Part shown: in pieces, positions 237 through 8,840 of the stretch
Position numbering within the stretch: the first letter of the stretch is position 1
Layout of the letters: each line of letters opens with the position of its first letter
Origin: a virus
DNA length: 64,000 nucleotides
Virus record (IMG/VR): IMGVR_UViG_3300010276_000001
Direction: 5' to 3' (one strand)
Notes under the pieces: model-generated
Told to the model about the DNA's origin: nothing
Seen by the model: the letters and a program-made list of their open reading frames with translations, nothing else
Database searches by the model: none
Made by a program: the position numbers and the translations under genes

Positions 237-425
237 TATTTTCCCCTCCTGTAAATTAAAAATTTTGTCGCTCTATGGTGCAAACTAATGTTCGTATAAA
301 AGATTATACTATTTTATAATTTAAATTTCAACCCGAACAAAGGAAAATTTTTTAAATATTTGTAAGAATTTATGAGACTATAAAAGGGAAAATCAATTAA
401 GAAGTATCATAGAAAGGCTGAAAAT

Positions 426-500
426 GTTGCAGCTTGGCAATCATAGGCATTCCTCCCTTAGACCCATAGCTTTGCGTCCTTACCTTTCGATAAGTTTGCC
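426..500 (-). promoter_or_regulatory. cyclic di-GMP-I (GEMM) riboswitch aptamer
   Basis: Minus strand reads GGCAAAC-TTATC-GAAA-GGTAA-GGACGCAAAGC-TATGGGTCTAA...ATGATTGCCAAGCTGCAAC, matching the hallmark GGCAAAC / GNRA tetraloop / GGACGCAAAGC / GGTCTAA elements. Confidence 0.9.
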
Positions 501-636
501 AAAATTAATTTTTTGCATTATCACACTGTAAACAACGTACTTAGTTCAATATATTTACTACGTTTAACAAAGTATTCCCACGTGATAGATTGTTTTTTAA
601 ATCAGATGTTTTAGAAAGAGTTGAAGACAAAAAATA

Positions 637-2573: not shown

Positions 2574-3161
2574 TTAATCACTGCGTTGTCTATATTTTTC
2601 CGCTAACTCTTTTGGTTGGACATGTGTATAAATCATGGTTGTTGACAAACTCGAATGTCCTAGCATTGTTTGTACTTCCCTAATATTCATACCGACATCA
2701 TTTAAACTTCTTGTTGCAAAAGAGTGGCGCAATGTATGCGGATGCACAAGCTTTCTCTTATCGCCATCTTGTATATAAACCCCAGCTTTCTTTGAAAGAC
2801 GGTAACATACTTCTCGTATATATCGTTGGTCAAGCTGCCCCCCTTTTAAAGTTGAGAAAAAATATAAGCTGTCAGGTCTTATCATATCCCATTTTCTAAA
2901 AGCTTCAATCGTGGTATTATCAAGTACAGTATATCGGTCCTTATTTCCTTTTGATTGCTGAATATATAGAAGACCATTTTCAAAATCAACGTCACATGCT
3001 TTTAAATCGCACACTTCTTGAACCCTTAATCCACTACGATACATTGACAACATGATTGCATAATTCCGGATTCCGGTAGGACATGATAAATTAATACAAC
3101 TCAACATTTTATTGATGTCTTTCTTATTAATGACTTTTGGCAGTTTTAAAGCCATTATCAT
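2574..3161 (-). CDS. tyrosine recombinase (Xer/integrase catalytic domain, 195 aa)
   Basis: YRSGLRVQEV, KG, HTLRHSFAT, LGHS, TTMIYTH: full R-K-H-R-H-Y set. Confidence 0.92.
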   Translation of the reverse strand: MIMALKLPKVINKKDINKMLSCINLSCPTGIRNYAIMLSMYRSGLRVQEVCDLKACDVDFENGLLYIQQSKGNKDRYTVLDNTTIEAFRKWDMIRPDSLYFFSTLKGGQLDQRYIREVCYRLSKKAGVYIQDGDKRKLVHPHTLRHSFATRSLNDVGMNIREVQTMLGHSSLSTTMIYTHVQPKELAEKYRQRSD

Positions 3162-3460
3162 TCGCCTCCTTCCTTAATTAATTCTTGTTCCGATATTTCG
3201 CCAGCCATGAGTTTGGTTAAATCATTAATTGCATCTTGCTCATTCTCATATTCCCGAAGAATCTTAACAATTCTATGTCGATTCTTACCAACCTTCATCA
3301 GTCCGTATTTATCCGGACTTTTTCTGATTATATTCATATAACCGCCTCCTAAATTATTTTTGATTTCGATAAACCCTTTGGCTGATATATTTTCATAGTC
3401 AAATATGAAGGCAAGTAGTTCAGCAAATTTATTGTTTTCGTACTTTATTTTTTTAATCAA
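3158..3460 (-). CDS. hypothetical phage protein
   Basis: ORF track; overlaps neighbours as in an operon. Confidence 0.65.
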   Translation of the reverse strand: MIKKIKYENNKFAELLAFIFDYENISAKGFIEIKNNLGGGYMNIIRKSPDKYGLMKVGKNRHRIVKILREYENEQDAINDLTKLMAGEISEQELIKEGGE

Positions 3461-4127
3461 TTAATTCATATCTACCTATTTCATGAATAACAGTTTCAAT
3501 ATTACCATTCCAATCTTCAACACAATCTTCAAATTCATCTTCAATATATTTCGCCCAACCTTCTTTTACAATTACATTATAATCATAAGGCTCTGTACCT
3601 GTTCCTAAATCCTCGTTAAGTTCGTCTAATGTTGCAATACGAGCAATTTGAGATTCATCATCTGTCAGTTCATTGCCAAATCTGAAATATTTTCCTTCAT
3701 CATCTTCAACAATATAAACTGTAAATGCCTTTATTAAGTATTCTTCATAATATTCCAAAAACTTACATTCAAAGTAGTCATACAAATCTTCTGCAATATC
3801 ATTTATTTCTTCTTCTGTAAAATGCTTTGTGCTGTTTTCTTCTCCTGCACTAAATACAACTATAAGACCAGATTCTTCTTTTATTATATCAATAATTTCA
3901 ACATTTTTGAGTTCTTCGATAAGTCCGAGCTTTGTGGCATCTCTAATAATATCTTCACTTGTTGCATCGCCTGCACTGTAGCCATCTTCCCATAAATGAT
4001 ATGCGCCTCGATACTGTACAGTTTCCCATACCTTATCTTCTGCATAATTGCCAGCGTCATTTTCTAAATAAGCATCAACGCTGTACTTTCTGTTTAAATC
4101 TTGCCATGCATCTCTAAACCATGACAT
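3453..4127 (-). CDS. acidic hypothetical phage protein
   Basis: 224-aa ORF, AAGGAG RBS, D/E-rich. Confidence 0.75.
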   Translation of the reverse strand: MSWFRDAWQDLNRKYSVDAYLENDAGNYAEDKVWETVQYRGAYHLWEDGYSAGDATSEDIIRDATKLGLIEELKNVEIIDIIKEESGLIVVFSAGEENSTKHFTEEEINDIAEDLYDYFECKFLEYYEEYLIKAFTVYIVEDDEGKYFRFGNELTDDESQIARIATLDELNEDLGTGTEPYDYNVIVKEGWAKYIEDEFEDCVEDWNGNIETVIHEIGRYELID

Positions 4128-4261
4128 TCATACCAACTCCTTTTTAATTTTTTATTTCATCTTAATATGGTTAAATCCATGACTTGTGACTGGTTCCATT
4201 TTCAAAGAAATGTATTACCGCCGAAAACTCGGTGTAACTCTGCATTAGATATTTTTTTATA

Positions 4262-4290
4262 TTGACATTTAGATTTTATTATTGTATAAT
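4262..4290 (+). promoter_or_regulatory. perfect sigma-A promoter, antisense to the leftward operon
   Basis: TTGACA (4262-4267), 17 bp, TATAAT (4285-4290). Confidence 0.75.
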
Positions 4291-4483
4291 TTTATCAGTG
4301 TAACAAACACATTAGATGTATTGAAATTTGTATGATTTTATACAAGTTTCAAGTGTAACCGATACACGTTGGTGTAGCAAGATTTTCAAACATAATAAAA
4401 CACTCTCCTTTTCTGCCGTCATTACGGCATATTATTTATTGTACCAGCTCACCAGCTGGGAAAATAGCTCATCAGCTACATTT

Positions 4484-4512
4484 ATTTTACAAGACTTTAC
4501 AAAAGTTGTCAA
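4484..4512 (-). promoter_or_regulatory. sigma-A promoter (leftward, internal)
   Basis: Minus strand TTGACA, 17 bp, TAAAAT. Confidence 0.65.
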
Positions 4513-4548
4513 CTTTTTATTGATAAAGCCTATAAGCGTTGGCGGCTT

Positions 4549-5811
4549 TTACACCGCCTGTACGGTTTCTTTGAATTCATATTTATGTAATTGCCAGTCG
4601 TCCATATAAACCCCAACAAAATCACTCCATTTGCTTTTAGTGACTTTTCGCTGTACCGGTTCTCCGATAAATTGCCCCGGAACGGGTACACCGTTTTCAA
4701 CTGCTATCTGTTGAAGCTTAACACCTGTTGCGGTTGTTTTTACAACCTGATATGCTCTATATACTGCGTTTTTTGTATCCATGCCGTAATTTATAGTTAA
4801 AATGTCACCAACTTTGTACGGATTATCAATCTTTTTTGTTGCTGGGTCCTTTGCTTCGATAATTTCTGTAATTGCCGCATAAGGTTCAGTTAATACGCCG
4901 CCTGACGCACCGCCGTCAAGGATCTTAAAAGTCACATTCACCGGACCGGCTGAAAGAATTTCGCACCTTCCCCAACGTCTCATTTTGACAATATAACCAA
5001 CTTTGATATTATCCTTGTTAAACCTATTCCCTCCGATTTCGTCCAGTTTATTTTCAAGGAATGCTTGTTTGTCTATCTCCCACTCCATTTTCTCAAGCGT
5101 TTCCTTAATATATTCATTGTATCTTTCGGCCGGAATGATTTCGCCGTTATAATCTTTAATTTCTTCGCCCTGTTCAATTCTGTGCAGTATTTCCTCATAA
5201 TAGACAATATTCTTTTCGAGTTTTGCAATTGTTGTTTTACATTCTTTAATTCTGTTATGTAAATAAACCGGGTCTTTTAGCTGCGCCATGCTTGCGGTTT
5301 GCCTTGCAGTTTCTGCCCTGCTACTGAAATATTCGCTTTTCCGGTATTCGTCAAAACCTTTGCGGTACCGTTCAAAAATGCGTTCTCTTTGCCTAGCAAA
5401 TGCCTGACTTCCAGCATGGCCGGCGATAATCGGCTGCGTAAAAAATGCTGTATCGCCACTAAAACGATTTAATTCAGATTGAAGGCTTTCCGCTCTTTTC
5501 TCTGCATTTGCTGCATGTTGTTCCATTCGTTCCGCTCTTGACTCGGCTCTTTCTGCTTTTCTCTCTAGCTCTTCAGCATATGAAAGCTTTTCGCCAACTT
5601 TGCCGCCATCTTCTAATCCAAGCTTTTGAGCAACTTGTAAAGCCCAGTAATGATTCTTTGTGCTTCTGCTTACCCATGCGCCAGCTGCTCGGCTCCATAA
5701 AAAATTGCTTTTAATTTCTTTTTTTAAATCATCTGATAAAGCCATATATTCCTCTTTATCAAAATGCAACTCAACCTTGCTTGTTTCTTTATTGATAATG
5801 TATTTTCCCAT
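4549..5811 (-). CDS. DUF3560-like domain protein
   Basis: Coiled coil ERKAERAESRAERM followed by FFTQPIIAGHAGSQAFARQRERI, resembling the DUF3560 QPILVGHHSE motif. Confidence 0.7.
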   Translation of the reverse strand: MGKYIINKETSKVELHFDKEEYMALSDDLKKEIKSNFLWSRAAGAWVSRSTKNHYWALQVAQKLGLEDGGKVGEKLSYAEELERKAERAESRAERMEQHAANAEKRAESLQSELNRFSGDTAFFTQPIIAGHAGSQAFARQRERIFERYRKGFDEYRKSEYFSSRAETARQTASMAQLKDPVYLHNRIKECKTTIAKLEKNIVYYEEILHRIEQGEEIKDYNGEIIPAERYNEYIKETLEKMEWEIDKQAFLENKLDEIGGNRFNKDNIKVGYIVKMRRWGRCEILSAGPVNVTFKILDGGASGGVLTEPYAAITEIIEAKDPATKKIDNPYKVGDILTINYGMDTKNAVYRAYQVVKTTATGVKLQQIAVENGVPVPGQFIGEPVQRKVTKSKWSDFVGVYMDDWQLHKYEFKETVQAV

Positions 5812-5953
5812 CTGATAAACCTCCTAATATTTTAATATGATTCCGGGATTGCTCCTGGATATTTTCAACGCCAAACACCGGAACGCACTAGCAAAATGCT
5901 AAAATGCGTCCCGGTGACGGTGAGCTATGCTCGTGTCGTAGGGTTCTATTCAA

Positions 5954-6923: not shown

Positions 6924-7024
6924 TCTCTCCCTTTCAACCTGTACGGATTATTTCCGTATTTCTTAATTATATTGTACGTCAATTTTCCGTACATGACAGG
7001 AGCCGGAGCTCCTGCCATCTGCAA

Positions 7025-7369
7025 TTATTCGAAGATTGCCTGTATCTTTCTAACTGTGCCCCCGTAAGGTATTTTCGGGGCATTGGTACGGTATACTTCA
7101 ATTTTGATTCTGCCGTACTTGGTAATATAGCCCTCTATGCAGGTTGTTTCTGCTCTCCAATCATAACTATTAGGTACTGCATATTTCTTAACACCTTCAA
7201 TTCTTTTCAAATACTTTCTTTCTACCTTGTCAGACAGTGCTTTTTCTCTGACCTCTTGCAATGCTGCTACAAAATTTTTCACATCTTCAAGATCCATTGT
7301 GCGGGCGCTGCATCTTGCCTGCACTTGATTCAATCTTTCTTCTACCTTCTTCATGTTCAATCTTGCCAT
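7025..7369 (-). CDS. hypothetical phage protein
   Basis: ORF 7025..7417; AAGGAGAG RBS favours ATG at 7369 (MARLNMKKVEE). Confidence 0.75.
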   Translation of the reverse strand: MARLNMKKVEERLNQVQARCSARTMDLEDVKNFVAALQEVREKALSDKVERKYLKRIEGVKKYAVPNSYDWRAETTCIEGYITKYGRIKIEVYRTNAPKIPYGGTVRKIQAIFE

Positions 7370-7451
7370 TTTGCTCTCCTTTCCGGTCCAATTCAATTTT
7401 GGACCCTTCCCGGACATTTCCGGGGCTGGCGTCGGTCGCCACCCTTTTTTA

Positions 7452-7512
7452 TTTTGGCTGTCTCATCAGTGCTGGTTGCCAACCCAACAGACCGCCGAAG
7501 CGGTTTCGACAA
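7452..7512 (-). ncRNA. type II hammerhead ribozyme with pseudoknot
   Basis: Minus strand: UUGUC-GAAA-CCGC(UUCG)GCGG-UC^-UGUUGG(GUUGGCAA)CCAGCA-CUGAUGA-GACA-GCCAA. All core nucleotides and stems I-III present, GUC cleavage triplet at 7492-7490, loop I UUGGC pairs with downstream GCCAA. Confidence 0.93.
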
Positions 7513-7513
7513 T

Positions 7514-7702
7514 TTAAAACACTGAATAAATAACTATTTCATAGTCACATGTACAGCGTCTTTTGTATTCGATACCTAACCTGTTTAGGTGTCGTTCAAT
7601 TCTTTTGTGCTCTTGATAGGGGACATTGATGTTTATGCCTCCGCCAAAATTCGAGACATATTCTATATTGTTGCGCTTCAGATATTTTTTTAAAATACTC
7701 AT
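7514..7702 (-). CDS. small hypothetical phage protein (62 aa)
   Basis: AAGGGAGGG RBS favours ATG at 7702; flanked by two hammerheads. Confidence 0.7.
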   Translation of the reverse strand: MSILKKYLKRNNIEYVSNFGGGININVPYQEHKRIERHLNRLGIEYKRRCTCDYEIVIYSVF

Positions 7703-7722
7703 GAATAAACCCTCCCTTAAAT

Positions 7723-7776
7723 TTCCCGTTTCGCCGGAGCTTCCCCGGCTCATCAGCAGGCTATGCCTGGACGGAA
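7723..7776 (-). ncRNA. type III hammerhead ribozyme
   Basis: Minus strand: UUCCG-UC^-CAGGC(AUA)GCCUG-CUGAUGA-GCCGG(GGAAGCU)CCGGC-GAAA-CGGGAA. Complete core; GUC triplet ends at 7770. Confidence 0.92.
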
Positions 7777-7786
7777 TGGCACCGGC

Positions 7787-8296
7787 TTATATTAAAGCCA
7801 GCGCCTCATTGATTGTAATACTGACAGCTTCTTGTCTCATTTCTTTCTTGATAAACCTTGCTAGTTTTATGAAGAACTTTATATCATCTTCGCTGACGTC
7901 CTCTAAGTGAACGCTTGCTATGATTAGATTATCATATACTACCTGTTGCAGTTCTTCACTGTACCAACTACCAAGGCCTTTTTCCAAAGTGGGAACCATT
8001 TCATATTTTTTATAAATTTTTTGAATTACTGTGGATATTACTTTTTTTAACTTCTCTTTGCCTGCTACTTCATTGATGTTATATGTATCAGGAATAAACA
8101 AAGATAAAGTATTAAGTTCTCTGTCCTTTTTTAGTTCGATAAACTCATTGCCGGAAACATTGCTATAAAGTTCACCTGTATCAAAGTTCAACGTTGCGCC
8201 ACCATGTTGTTTTGCAGCTTCTTCAAGATTGTTAACTTTAACTTTGTTTGAAAGGAAAAAGCTGAAATTGAACTTTTTTGAATCAATTTTCTTCAT
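7787..8296 (-). CDS. hypothetical phage protein
   Basis: 169-aa ORF with AAAGGAG RBS, directly after the twister. Confidence 0.75.
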   Translation of the reverse strand: MKKIDSKKFNFSFFLSNKVKVNNLEEAAKQHGGATLNFDTGELYSNVSGNEFIELKKDRELNTLSLFIPDTYNINEVAGKEKLKKVISTVIQKIYKKYEMVPTLEKGLGSWYSEELQQVVYDNLIIASVHLEDVSEDDIKFFIKLARFIKKEMRQEAVSITINEALALI

Positions 8297-8329
8297 TTTG
8301 ATTGATAACTCCTTTCGTTTTAGCTTATA

Positions 8330-8385
8330 CCCTCTGCATTTTTCCAGGCTTGGGACTGGCTGCTACTATGTGACAGGCTGCATTA
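8330..8385 (-). ncRNA. twister ribozyme (type P1-like core)
   Basis: Minus strand: U^AA-UGC-A-GC-CUGU..GCAG-CCAG-UCCCAAGC-CUGG-AAAAAU-GCA-GAGGG. P2 UGC/GCA, P4 CCAG/CUGG, invariant L4 UCCCAAGC and 3' GAGGG match the twister consensus; P1 is weak. Confidence 0.85.
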
Positions 8386-8479
8386 CTTTCCACGCTCTTC
8401 CCTTCCGCTCCCCCTAACCAGCGCCACCGCCTTTGGGGTATGACCCGCATTATGCAGGCTCATCAGGAATTGCGCTTAC

Positions 8480-8497
8480 ATTCAGTTTTCAAGGTTC
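8480..8497 (-). promoter_or_regulatory. boxA-like antitermination element
   Basis: GAACCTTGAAAACTGAAT resembles Firmicute rRNA-operon boxA-region sequences; about 25 nt after the promoter. Confidence 0.45.
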
Positions 8498-8525
8498 ATT
8501 CTTATCTTGCCCTTTTCTTACTTAT

Positions 8526-8554
8526 ATTATACATCCAATGTATGTACATTTCAA
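8526..8554 (-). promoter_or_regulatory. strong sigma-A promoter of the ribozyme-containing operon
   Basis: Minus strand TTGAAA, 17 bp, TATAAT. Confidence 0.8.
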
Positions 8555-8657: not shown

Positions 8658-8840
8658 CTATTTTTCTTCTTGTGTTTGCCCTTGTTCCTGCTCTATCTCA
8701 TGCCTTCTCCTTCTGTACTCTGCTAGTATCAGCTTGTTTATTACTGCCGTGCTGGTTAGTCCGTCAAGCTCTGCCAGCTGTGCCAGCTTTTTTTTAGTTT
8801 CTTCTGGTATTCTGTAGCTAGTATGCTTTATCTGTGCCAT
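8658..8840 (-). CDS. ribbon-helix-helix (CopG/Arc-like) regulator
   Basis: TSYRIPEETKKKLAQLAELDGLTSTAVINKLI strand-helix-helix pattern; GGAGGCG RBS. Confidence 0.7.
   Translation of the reverse strand: MAQIKHTSYRIPEETKKKLAQLAELDGLTSTAVINKLILAEYRRRRHEIEQEQGQTQEEK

What the first reader, a model, noticed from the sequence alone, without database searches (positions are those of the whole stretch)
7369..8554. Ribozyme-punctuated phage operon: a twister and two hammerheads cut one transcript between consecutive genes
Seen: from the consensus promoter at 8554-8526 the minus-strand transcript runs twister (8385-8330), RBS+ORF 8296-7787, type III hammerhead (7776-7723), RBS+ORF 7702-7514, type II hammerhead (7512-7452), hairpins, RBS+ORF 7369. 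Each ribozyme sits just upstream of a ribosome-binding site. Known: twister and hammerhead ribozymes occur near small phage-like genes in Clostridia, and their function is largely unknown. Inference: the operon self-processes into monocistronic mRNAs with 5'-OH ends, which may change RNase J/Y stability and gene stoichiometry. Three ribozymes of two classes within 1 kb of an intact prophage make a testable programmed RNA-processing system.
Basis: partly seen in the sequence, partly recalled or inferred. Interest (0 to 1): 0.92.

Follow-up and report, generated by a model that had tools for sequence, protein, structure and literature searches.

The report
Ribozyme-punctuated phage accessory operon
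Three self-cutting RNA motifs (one twister, two hammerheads) really do sit between the first genes of a leftward phage operon, but this layout has been known in prophages since 2011, and the more unusual part is a conserved leader RNA with an rRNA-type boxA signal in front of them.

Summary
Observation confirmed. Rfam covariance models place a twister-P1 (8326-8389), a type III hammerhead (7723-7777) and a type II hammerhead (7452-7511) on the minus strand.

Each ribozyme lies between a stop codon and the next ribosome-binding site, downstream of an 11/12 promoter. No minus-strand terminator is predicted before 2326.

Relatives of the flanking genes carry different ribozyme classes at the same positions: twister, pistol, hammerhead and twister-sister. 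One relative (L177) is the window minus a block of about 900 nt whose left edge is the twister's 3' end. After the third gene the window keeps only the 5' half of a twister-P5, a dead fourth ribozyme.

The interpretation (self-processing into single-gene mRNAs) is the published but untested hypothesis of Perreault et al. 2011. This scan has also met such arrays in other genomes. I rate it a new member of a known kind.

New here: the 135-nt leader that the twister should cut off carries an rRNA-type boxA. It is followed by a conserved, covarying three-helix RNA that matches no Rfam family. This suggests Nus-factor antitermination coupled to ribozyme processing, as in the T7 early operon, which combines boxA with RNase III sites.

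The parts
8526..8554 (-). Sigma-70-type promoter TTGAAA-17-TATAAT. The inferred transcription start is near 8519.
   Evidence: 11 of 12 consensus positions. The promoter is about 95% identical in L177.
8484..8499 (-). boxA-like element AUGAACCUUGAAAACU.
   Evidence: Its 11-nt core CCUUGAAAACU occurs exactly once in the window. The same core sits in the rRNA leader and the 16S-23S spacer of the bacterial genome that carries a sister prophage. It matches 11 of 13 positions of the B. subtilis boxA consensus given in PMC13753749. It is kept in 6 related leaders.
8392..8475 (-). Conserved three-helix junction RNA. It has a hammerhead-like CUGAUGAG strand, but AUACC and GGGAGCGGAAG where a hammerhead has GAAA and the cleavage site. 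It matches no Rfam family.
   Evidence: Alignment A3 and RNAalifold give 22 pairs, 12 with compensatory changes. 92.5% of cells are paired against 40-54% when partners are slid, and 0 of 500 shuffles reach this. No Rfam hit at E<=10.
8326..8389 (-). Twister ribozyme, type P1 topology, with almost no P1 stem. Predicted cleavage between U8385 and A8384.
   Evidence: 58 bits, E 1.9e-10. P2, P4, loop GUCCCAAGCC and GAGGG match the model. The same ribozyme is in L001, L026 and L177/L178. P1 is dispensable for cleavage (PMC11662667).
7787..8296 (-). Gene 1, 169 aa, function unknown, preceded by the RBS AAAGGAG.
   Evidence: 87 homologues. Only weak family matches: phrog_3543 at E 3.8e-6 and Pfam YceG far below its cut-off.
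7723..7777 (-). Type III hammerhead ribozyme. Predicted cleavage between C7770 and C7769, 17 nt after the stop codon of gene 1.
   Evidence: 46.4 bits. The minimum-free-energy fold is the canonical three-way junction. In 10 related copies, 10 of 16 pairs show compensatory changes while the core is invariant.
7514..7702 (-). Gene 2, 62 aa, an orphan, preceded by the RBS AAGGGAGGG plus the spacer UUUAUUC.
   Evidence: The only database match is itself, so coding is supported only by the RBS and its position.
7452..7511 (-). Type II hammerhead ribozyme. Stem III is capped by UUCG, and UUGGC in loop I can pair with GCCAA downstream (pseudoknot). Predicted cleavage between C7490 and U7489.
   Evidence: 41 bits, above the gathering score of 37. 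Pseudoknots of this kind in type II hammerheads are described in PMC3088659.
7385..7444 (-). Three hairpins in the 5' UTR of gene 3. The last one (7385-7405, GGUCCAA...UUGGACC) travels with the gene.
   Evidence: Fold z-score -3.2. The last hairpin and the RBS are conserved upstream of the homologous gene in L177.
7025..7369 (-). Gene 3, 114 aa, function unknown.
   Evidence: 4 homologues; P0089 is 114 aa long. In L177 it is the first gene after the twister.
6990..7023 (-). Remnant of a twister-P5 ribozyme. Only the 5' half is left, as an 11-bp hairpin.
   Evidence: Alignment A4. The window is identical to the 5' half of L177's twister-P5 (3347-3402, 57.8 bits). The 3' half, which holds the conserved loop, is replaced. 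No Rfam hit in the window here.
5812..5953 (-). Structured spacer before the DUF3560 gene. It contains a long hairpin of about 17 bp and matches no known family.
   Evidence: Fold z-score -4.8. No Rfam hit. No nucleotide similarity to the related loci. Relatives have different elements at this position.
2574..5811 (-). Rest of the leftward gene block. It comprises a DUF3560 protein (5811-4549), an internal promoter (4512-4484), small genes, and a 195-aa protein consisting of a tyrosine-recombinase catalytic domain only (3161-2574). A terminator follows at 2326-2307.
   Evidence: The same end-of-operon genes are found in L004, L015 and L017.

Best explanation
The leftward accessory operon of a temperate tailed phage is transcribed by host RNA polymerase from the promoter at 8554-8526. 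The nascent RNA first presents an rRNA-type boxA and a conserved three-helix RNA. These most likely load Nus factors and make the polymerase resistant to termination (inferred).

Three constitutive self-cleaving ribozymes then cut the transcript at 8385/8384, 7770/7769 and 7490/7489. The predicted products are:
- a leader RNA of about 135 nt;
- a 615-nt mRNA for the 169-aa protein;
- a 280-nt mRNA for the 62-aa protein, ending in the UUCG-capped stem III hairpin with a 2',3'-cyclic phosphate;
- a downstream RNA that starts at gene 3.

Each product begins with a 5'-OH and the folded body of its ribozyme, just ahead of its ribosome-binding site.

The likely purpose is to give every gene cassette a defined 5' UTR and 3' end that do not depend on its neighbours. 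Stability and translation would then be set per cassette in an operon whose cassettes are frequently exchanged.

Shown: the motifs, their cores, their positions, and their interchangeability with other ribozyme classes. Inferred: cleavage in vivo, antitermination, and the effect on expression.
For: - CM hits with full-length models and canonical cores.
- The hammerhead III minimum-free-energy fold is canonical, and its three stems covary across ten related copies.
- All three ribozymes lie between a stop codon and the next RBS.
- No terminator is predicted inside the operon.
- Class swapping upstream of the 169-aa gene family: twister-P1 in the window, L001 and L026; pistol in L003 and L014; a 24-bp hairpin in L010, L016, L019, L023 and L024.
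- Class swapping downstream of the same gene family: hammerhead III in the window plus six loci, or twister-sister in L023 and L032.
- Class swapping around the 114-aa gene: hammerhead II in the window, but twister-P1 upstream and twister-P5 downstream in L177.
- The window equals L177 plus an insertion of about 900 nt that starts at the 3' end of the twister.
- boxA. Leader structure.
- Literature: clustered hammerheads flank single genes in prophages and cleave in vitro in about 2-kb transcripts (PMC3088659). The processing hypothesis is restated in PMC6765202. The T7 early operon has a boxA behind host promoters (PMC3709561).
Against: - No experiment exists for this locus.
- The twister and the hammerhead III score below Rfam's gathering thresholds, and the twister has almost no P1.
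- Gene 2 is an orphan with no independent support for coding.
- Later junctions of the same operon lack intact ribozymes, so processing is not needed at every junction.
- 5'-OH ends can destabilise rather than protect mRNAs in Firmicutes (glmS and RNase J1, from my own knowledge), so the direction of any effect is unknown.
- boxA is a short motif. Binding of NusB, and any need for antitermination here, are untested.
Confidence: 0.7

Rival explanations
1. The ribozymes matter mainly at the DNA level. They would act as conserved module boundaries that supply short homology for exchanging gene cassettes between phages, and RNA cleavage would be incidental.
For: An indel breakpoint lies exactly at the twister's 3' end. 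A twister-P5 is cut in half by a replacement. The same RBS and spacer (GGAGGGUUUAUCA) recur before many unrelated genes. Cassette content differs in every related locus.
Against: The same gene is flanked by unrelated ribozyme classes, which gives no homology for recombination. Catalytic cores stay invariant while stems covary, which indicates selection on the RNA.
Confidence: 0.12
2. Cleavage is conditional. It would be controlled by a ligand, a protein, or folding competition with flanking RNA, and the array would work as a switch between lysogeny and induction rather than as constitutive processing.
For: Related loci carry natural core variants: CCGAUGA, and an extra A after A6. PMC3088659 found variants of this kind to be slow and suggested they could be regulated. 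The twister has no P1. Strong hairpins adjoin the hammerhead II.
Against: The window's three cores are fully canonical. No aptamer-like extension or alternative pairing with the flanks was seen in the folds.
Confidence: 0.1
3. The special ends (5'-OH and 2',3'-cyclic phosphate) are the point. They would serve as substrates for RtcB-type ligation, giving circular or rejoined RNAs, or as a way to escape host nucleases or defence sensors.
For: Every cut gives such ends by the chemistry of these ribozyme classes. The leader RNA would be released with a cyclic phosphate. In L015, L055 and L060 the leader is flanked by ribozymes on both sides.
Against: Perreault et al. looked for spliced or circular products from such arrays and found none (PMC3088659). 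No ligase gene was seen in the operon.
Confidence: 0.05
4. The motifs are inactive relics of once-functional ribozymes.
For: A dead twister-P5 remnant lies in the same operon. Two of the three scores are below the gathering thresholds.
Against: All conserved core nucleotides are present. The twister is about 95% conserved with L177. The hammerhead III family covaries.
Confidence: 0.03

Closest known systems
Clustered hammerhead ribozymes flanking single genes in prophages (Perreault et al. 2011, PMC3088659). Examples are the arrays of Clostridium scindens, Azorhizobium caulinodans and Agrobacterium tumefaciens.
   Same: Several self-cleaving ribozymes lie between consecutive small, variable genes of one strand, in a prophage, close to an integrase-family gene. 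The proposed role is processing of a long transcript into gene-length mRNAs.
   Different: Two classes are mixed here (twister plus hammerhead types II and III). Relatives use pistol and twister-sister at the same positions. A boxA-bearing leader heads the array. No cleavage data exist for this locus.
Ribozyme-rich gene neighbourhoods used to discover twister-sister, pistol and hatchet (Weinberg et al. 2015, as summarised in PMC4604425 and PMC5737381).
   Same: Twister and hammerhead ribozymes lie within a few kb of each other and of phage genes, in Firmicutes-type DNA.
   Different: Those surveys were statistical. Here the exchange of classes is seen position by position around the same gene families, and the indel edges are mapped.
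Phage T7 early operon: host promoters, boxA, and RNase III sites between genes. The boxA is cited from PMC3709561. The RNase III processing is from my own knowledge (Dunn and Studier).
   Same: A host-polymerase operon of small accessory genes carries a boxA just downstream of the promoter and has a processing site in each intercistronic gap.
   Different: Cutting is done by the RNA itself rather than by host RNase III, so the ends are 5'-OH and cyclic phosphate. Some relatives do have a long hairpin, possibly an RNase III substrate, at the twister's position.
Synthetic ribozyme insulators such as RiboJ (from my own knowledge).
   Same: A self-cleaving ribozyme directly upstream of an RBS removes the variable upstream RNA and so standardises the 5' UTR.
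   Different: This is a natural arrangement, and no insulating effect has been measured.
rRNA-operon leader and lambda nut sites (boxA with Nus factors).
   Same: A boxA core identical to that of a related host's rrn leader lies right after the promoter and is followed by structured RNA.
   Different: The accompanying structure is a three-helix junction, not boxB or boxC. No N-like protein was identified. The leader should be severed from the transcript by the twister.

Membership tests
Twister ribozyme (Rfam RF03160, type P1) | Helices P2 and P4, the loop GUCCCAAGCC, the 3' GAGGG that forms the pseudoknots, and a UAA cleavage-site loop. | tested here: met
   The CM alignment shows all of these. 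P2 is UGCA/UGCA and P4 is CCA/UGG. The cleavage-site U-A is at 8385/8384.
Twister ribozyme (Rfam RF03160, type P1) | Score at or above Rfam's gathering threshold, and a closing P1 stem. | tested here: not met
   58 bits against 67.2. Only 2 of 4 P1 pairs are standard. P1 is reported to be dispensable for cleavage (PMC11662667), so this lowers formal membership but not the likelihood of activity.
Hammerhead ribozyme type III (RF00008) | Core CUGAUGA ... GAAA ... GUC, with three stems, stem III open. | tested here: met
   The stems covary in ten related copies. The score of 46.4 is just below the gathering score of 48.5, with E 5e-7.
Hammerhead ribozyme type II (RF02276) | The same core with stem II open, and a pseudoknot between loop I and the 3' tail. 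| tested here: met
   41 bits against a gathering score of 37. UUGGC can pair with GCCAA, read directly from the sequence.
All three ribozymes | Mg2+-dependent site-specific self-cleavage. | not testable with these tools
Clustered-ribozyme prophage operon (Perreault 2011) | Several ribozymes flank individual genes on one strand, in phage DNA near an integrase-family gene, and the gene content varies. | tested here: met
   Related loci.
boxA / Nus-factor antitermination site | Sequence match to the host-type rrn boxA, and a position just downstream of the promoter. | tested here: met
   The window's own host genome is not held, so the comparison is with the host of a sister prophage and with B. 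subtilis.
boxA / Nus-factor antitermination site | Binding of NusB-S10 and read-through of terminators. | not testable with these tools
Hammerhead ribozyme (for the leader RNA at 8392-8475) | A GAAA strand after stem II, and a UH cleavage site before the closing stem. | tested here: not met
   The leader has AUACC and GGGAGCGGAAG instead, and these are conserved in 8 sequences. No hammerhead CM hit at E<=10.

The most novel reading that the evidence does not exclude
The head of the operon is a new composite RNA module. An rRNA-type boxA and a conserved hammerhead-shaped three-helix RNA, absent from Rfam, together form a phage nut-like antitermination signal. Flanking ribozymes then excise this module as a discrete RNA of about 135 nt. 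If so, ribozyme-punctuated phage operons depend on Nus-factor antitermination to transcribe long stretches of untranslated, self-cutting RNA.
Probability: 0.3. Interest if true: 0.7.

Novelty: new member of a known kind. Interest (0 to 1): 0.45.

Why it matters
The biological role of bacterial and phage self-cleaving ribozymes is still unsolved. This locus adds three useful things to a known picture.
- It offers natural swap experiments: the same genes are flanked by twister, pistol, hammerhead, twister-sister or a long hairpin. This argues that the cut itself, rather than any particular ribozyme class, is what is selected.
- It has mapped cassette edges that coincide with ribozyme ends.
- A boxA leader heads the array, linking ribozyme processing to antitermination as in the T7 early operon.

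It is a compact 1.2-kb test bed, but not a new kind of system.

Tried and rejected
- The window's own genome is not held, so no genome-wide ribozyme count or host rRNA comparison was possible.
- blastn of the region against 50,697 phage records gave no match.
- A single-protein scan of IMG/VR gave none. A profile scan gave two loci, neither with an Rfam ribozyme hit at E<=0.05. L017 has a twister-sister-like element by eye.
- A protein-pattern scan of GTDB genomes gave none.
- A leader-motif pattern scan of genomes gave 22 chance hits in GC-rich DNA and one true hit, L055. In IMG/VR it gave two chance hits.
- A looser boxA-plus-AAUGAG pattern in IMG/VR returned only noise.
- blastn of the window's other gaps against the related loci gave nothing meaningful.
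- The twister-sister-like elements of L015 are not recognised by Rfam even at E<=5. I call them twister-sister-like only by shared end sequences.
- Weinberg 2015 and Roth 2014 are not in the held library and are cited through later papers.
- I rejected the reading of the leader RNA as a decayed hammerhead, because its non-hammerhead junction strands are conserved while its stems covary.
Full report
1. WHAT IS THERE

All three claimed ribozymes are found on the minus strand of the window by the Rfam covariance models.
- Twister-P1 lies at 8326-8389 (58 bits, E 1.9e-10 in the whole-window search).
- Hammerhead type III lies at 7723-7777 (46.4 bits, E 5.1e-7).
- Hammerhead type II lies at 7452-7511 (41 bits, above its gathering score).

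The twister and the type III hammerhead fall short of Rfam's curated cut-offs of 67.2 and 48.5 bits. Both still match the full model and keep every conserved core nucleotide. The twister loses score mainly because it has almost no P1 stem and a short P3. A large assay of natural twisters found P1 imperfections to have no effect on cleavage (PMC11662667).

The type III hammerhead folds on its own into the canonical three-way junction. The type II hammerhead has a UUCG-capped stem III and the loop-I/3'-tail pseudoknot typical of this type (PMC3088659).

2. OPERON ANATOMY

- A promoter matching 11 of 12 consensus positions lies at 8554-8526. No minus-strand terminator is predicted before 2326-2307.
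- The twister ends 30 nt before the start codon of a 169-aa gene (8296-7787).
- The type III hammerhead starts 9 nt after that gene's stop and ends just before the RBS of a 62-aa ORF (7702-7514).
- The type II hammerhead starts 2 nt after that ORF's stop. Three hairpins and the RBS of a 114-aa gene (7369-7025) follow it.
- The 169-aa protein has 87 database relatives and the 114-aa protein has four. The 62-aa ORF has none but itself.
- None of the three has a recognisable function.
- Downstream the operon continues with two more unknown genes, a DUF3560 protein, an internal promoter, small genes, and a 195-aa protein made of the tyrosine-recombinase catalytic domain alone.
- The plus strand to the right encodes terminase, portal, major head and tape-measure proteins. 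This is therefore the divergently transcribed accessory block of a tailed temperate phage.

Predicted products, inferred from the coordinates:
- a leader RNA of about 135 nt;
- a 615-nt mRNA for gene 1;
- a 280-nt mRNA for gene 2 with a 3' hairpin;
- a downstream RNA that begins at U7489.

3. COMPARATIVE EVIDENCE

I fetched loci that encode relatives of the 169-aa and 114-aa proteins and scanned them with Rfam.

Gap after the 169-aa gene:
- a type III hammerhead in the window and six loci;
- variant hammerheads in four more loci, seen by eye;
- a twister-sister in L023 and L032;
- twister-sister-like elements in five more loci, where the gene's own UAG stop codon lies inside the element in four of them.

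Gap before the 169-aa gene:
- twister-P1 in the window, L001 and L026;
- pistol in L003 and L014;
- a conserved 24-bp hairpin in five loci;
- no known element in the most distant, AT-rich loci.

Around the 114-aa gene: it follows a type II hammerhead in the window. In L177 it follows a twister-P1 and is followed by a twister-P5.

Across ten related type III hammerheads, 10 of 16 stem pairs show compensatory changes while the core stays invariant.

This position-by-position exchange of unrelated ribozyme classes, and possibly of a double-stranded RNA hairpin, is the best available argument that a cut at that place is what selection keeps.

4. CASSETTE EDGES

L177 has the same promoter, leader and twister at about 95% identity and then runs straight into the 114-aa gene's 5' UTR. 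The window differs by an extra block of about 900 nt (RBS, gene 1, hammerhead III, RBS, gene 2, hammerhead II, two hairpins). Its left edge is the last nucleotide of the twister.

After the 114-aa gene, the window matches the 5' half of L177's twister-P5 base for base and then diverges, losing the conserved loop. A fourth ribozyme position therefore exists in the window but is dead.

A recurrent RBS plus spacer (GGAGGGUUUAUCA, then the start codon) precedes many unrelated genes in these operons, on the operon strand only.

5. THE LEADER

A separate note called it a decayed hammerhead. It is a conserved module found in eight sequences.

boxA. The module begins with AUGAACCUUGAAAACU.
- The core CCUUGAAAACU occurs exactly once in the window.
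- The same core is found in both the rRNA leader and the 16S-23S spacer of the bacterial chromosome that carries a sister prophage (L055/G001).
- It matches 11 of 13 positions of the B. subtilis boxA consensus, which was shown to bind NusB (PMC13753749).

Three-helix junction. It follows the boxA.
- 92.5% of cells are paired, against 40-54% in slid controls.
- 12 of 22 pairs show compensatory changes.
- Its junction strands (AAUGAG, AUACC, GGGAGCGGAAG) are conserved and are not those of a hammerhead.
- No Rfam family matches at E<=10.
- Only about four independent lineages are sampled, so the covariation support is moderate.

I infer a nut-like antitermination leader that the twister severs from the mRNA. 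In L015, L055 and L060 a hammerhead also cuts just upstream of it.

6. WHAT IS KNOWN

Perreault et al. 2011 described multiple hammerheads flanking single genes in prophages near integrase genes. They proposed processing into single-gene mRNAs and showed cleavage of three such arrays in vitro (PMC3088659).

The tendency of twister and hammerhead ribozymes to lie near each other and near phage genes was the basis for discovering twister-sister, pistol and hatchet (PMC4604425; PMC5737381). A 2019 review repeats the processing hypothesis and says it remains to be defined (PMC6765202).

This scan has already reported several such arrays in other genomes, one of them with a boxA leader. Those are unchecked notes, not independent evidence.

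The closest functional analogue is the T7 early operon. Its boxA is cited from PMC3709561. Its RNase III sites are from my own knowledge.

7. VERDICT

The added value lies in three things: the class-swap evidence, the cassette edges at ribozyme ends, and the boxA plus three-helix leader. The leader is the one element that may be new.

Noticed in passing
window 425-510 (-): A c-di-GMP-I riboswitch aptamer (76.7 bits, E 2.5e-13) lies upstream of a 73-aa ORF at 236-15, at the left end of the window beyond the accessory block.
   Followed up: no
L010 ~4590-4650, L012 ~4505-4566, L015 ~1620-1680 and ~3000-3072, L017, L001 ~4860-4945, L004 ~4825-4890, L018 ~7110-7197, L020 ~1565-1633, L021, L031 ~895-965: These elements share the ends UAGGGC(A/U)AGG ... 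CCGCUCAACCUAU with Rfam-validated twister-sisters (L023, L032). Rfam does not detect them, even at E<=5 in L015. They may be a twister-sister variant that the model misses. In four loci the upstream gene's UAG stop codon lies inside the element.
   Followed up: partly
L023 95-155, L010 ~4003-4063, L016 ~3921-3981, L019, L024 ~4915-4975: A conserved 24-bp hairpin (5 pairs with compensatory changes) sits just before the RBS of the 169-aa gene, exactly where the window has its twister. It may be an RNase III-type processing site standing in for a ribozyme.
   Followed up: partly
window 7715 and 5824 (-); many sites in L004, L010, L015 and others: The same RBS plus spacer (GGAGGGUUUAUCA, then the start codon) recurs before unrelated genes, on the operon strand only, with eight copies in L004. 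It looks like a standardised translation-initiation cassette or a junction sequence.
   Followed up: partly
L003 1019-1072, L024 ~5509-5562, L004 4522-4578, L015 860-916, L027, L031: Natural hammerhead core variants occur at the syntenic position: CCGAUGA (U4 to C), an extra A after A6, and UUGAAUAAG. Perreault 2011 found variants of this kind to be slow cleavers.
   Followed up: no
window 4393-4512 (-): An internal promoter (TTGACA-17-TAAAAT) is followed by another CUGAUGAG (4468-4475) and a 14-codon micro-ORF. No GAAA partner and no Rfam hit were found.
   Followed up: no
window 2574-3161 (-); L004 7314-7901, L015 4796-5383, L017 8528-9103: A 195-aa protein consisting only of the tyrosine-recombinase catalytic domain is conserved at the end of these ribozyme-rich operons, preceded by a conserved small gene of about 60-100 aa.
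   Followed up: partly
window 8658-8840 (-): A 60-aa gene lies on the operon strand just upstream of the promoter. It is conserved at that place in L001, L004, L022, L024 and L026. In L015 the gene at that place is annotated RHH_5. It is a likely regulator of the operon.
   Followed up: partly
L060 6219-7348 (G001 chromosome, OW818645.1): A sister prophage in a 4.19-Mb bacterial chromosome carries hammerhead III, the boxA leader, pistol and twister-P5 within 1.1 kb. A tRNA gene lies about 6 kb away.
   Followed up: partly
L015 2126-2180: A weak match to RAGATH-36 (19 bits, E 1.5) in another gap of a related operon. It is probably chance.
   Followed up: no
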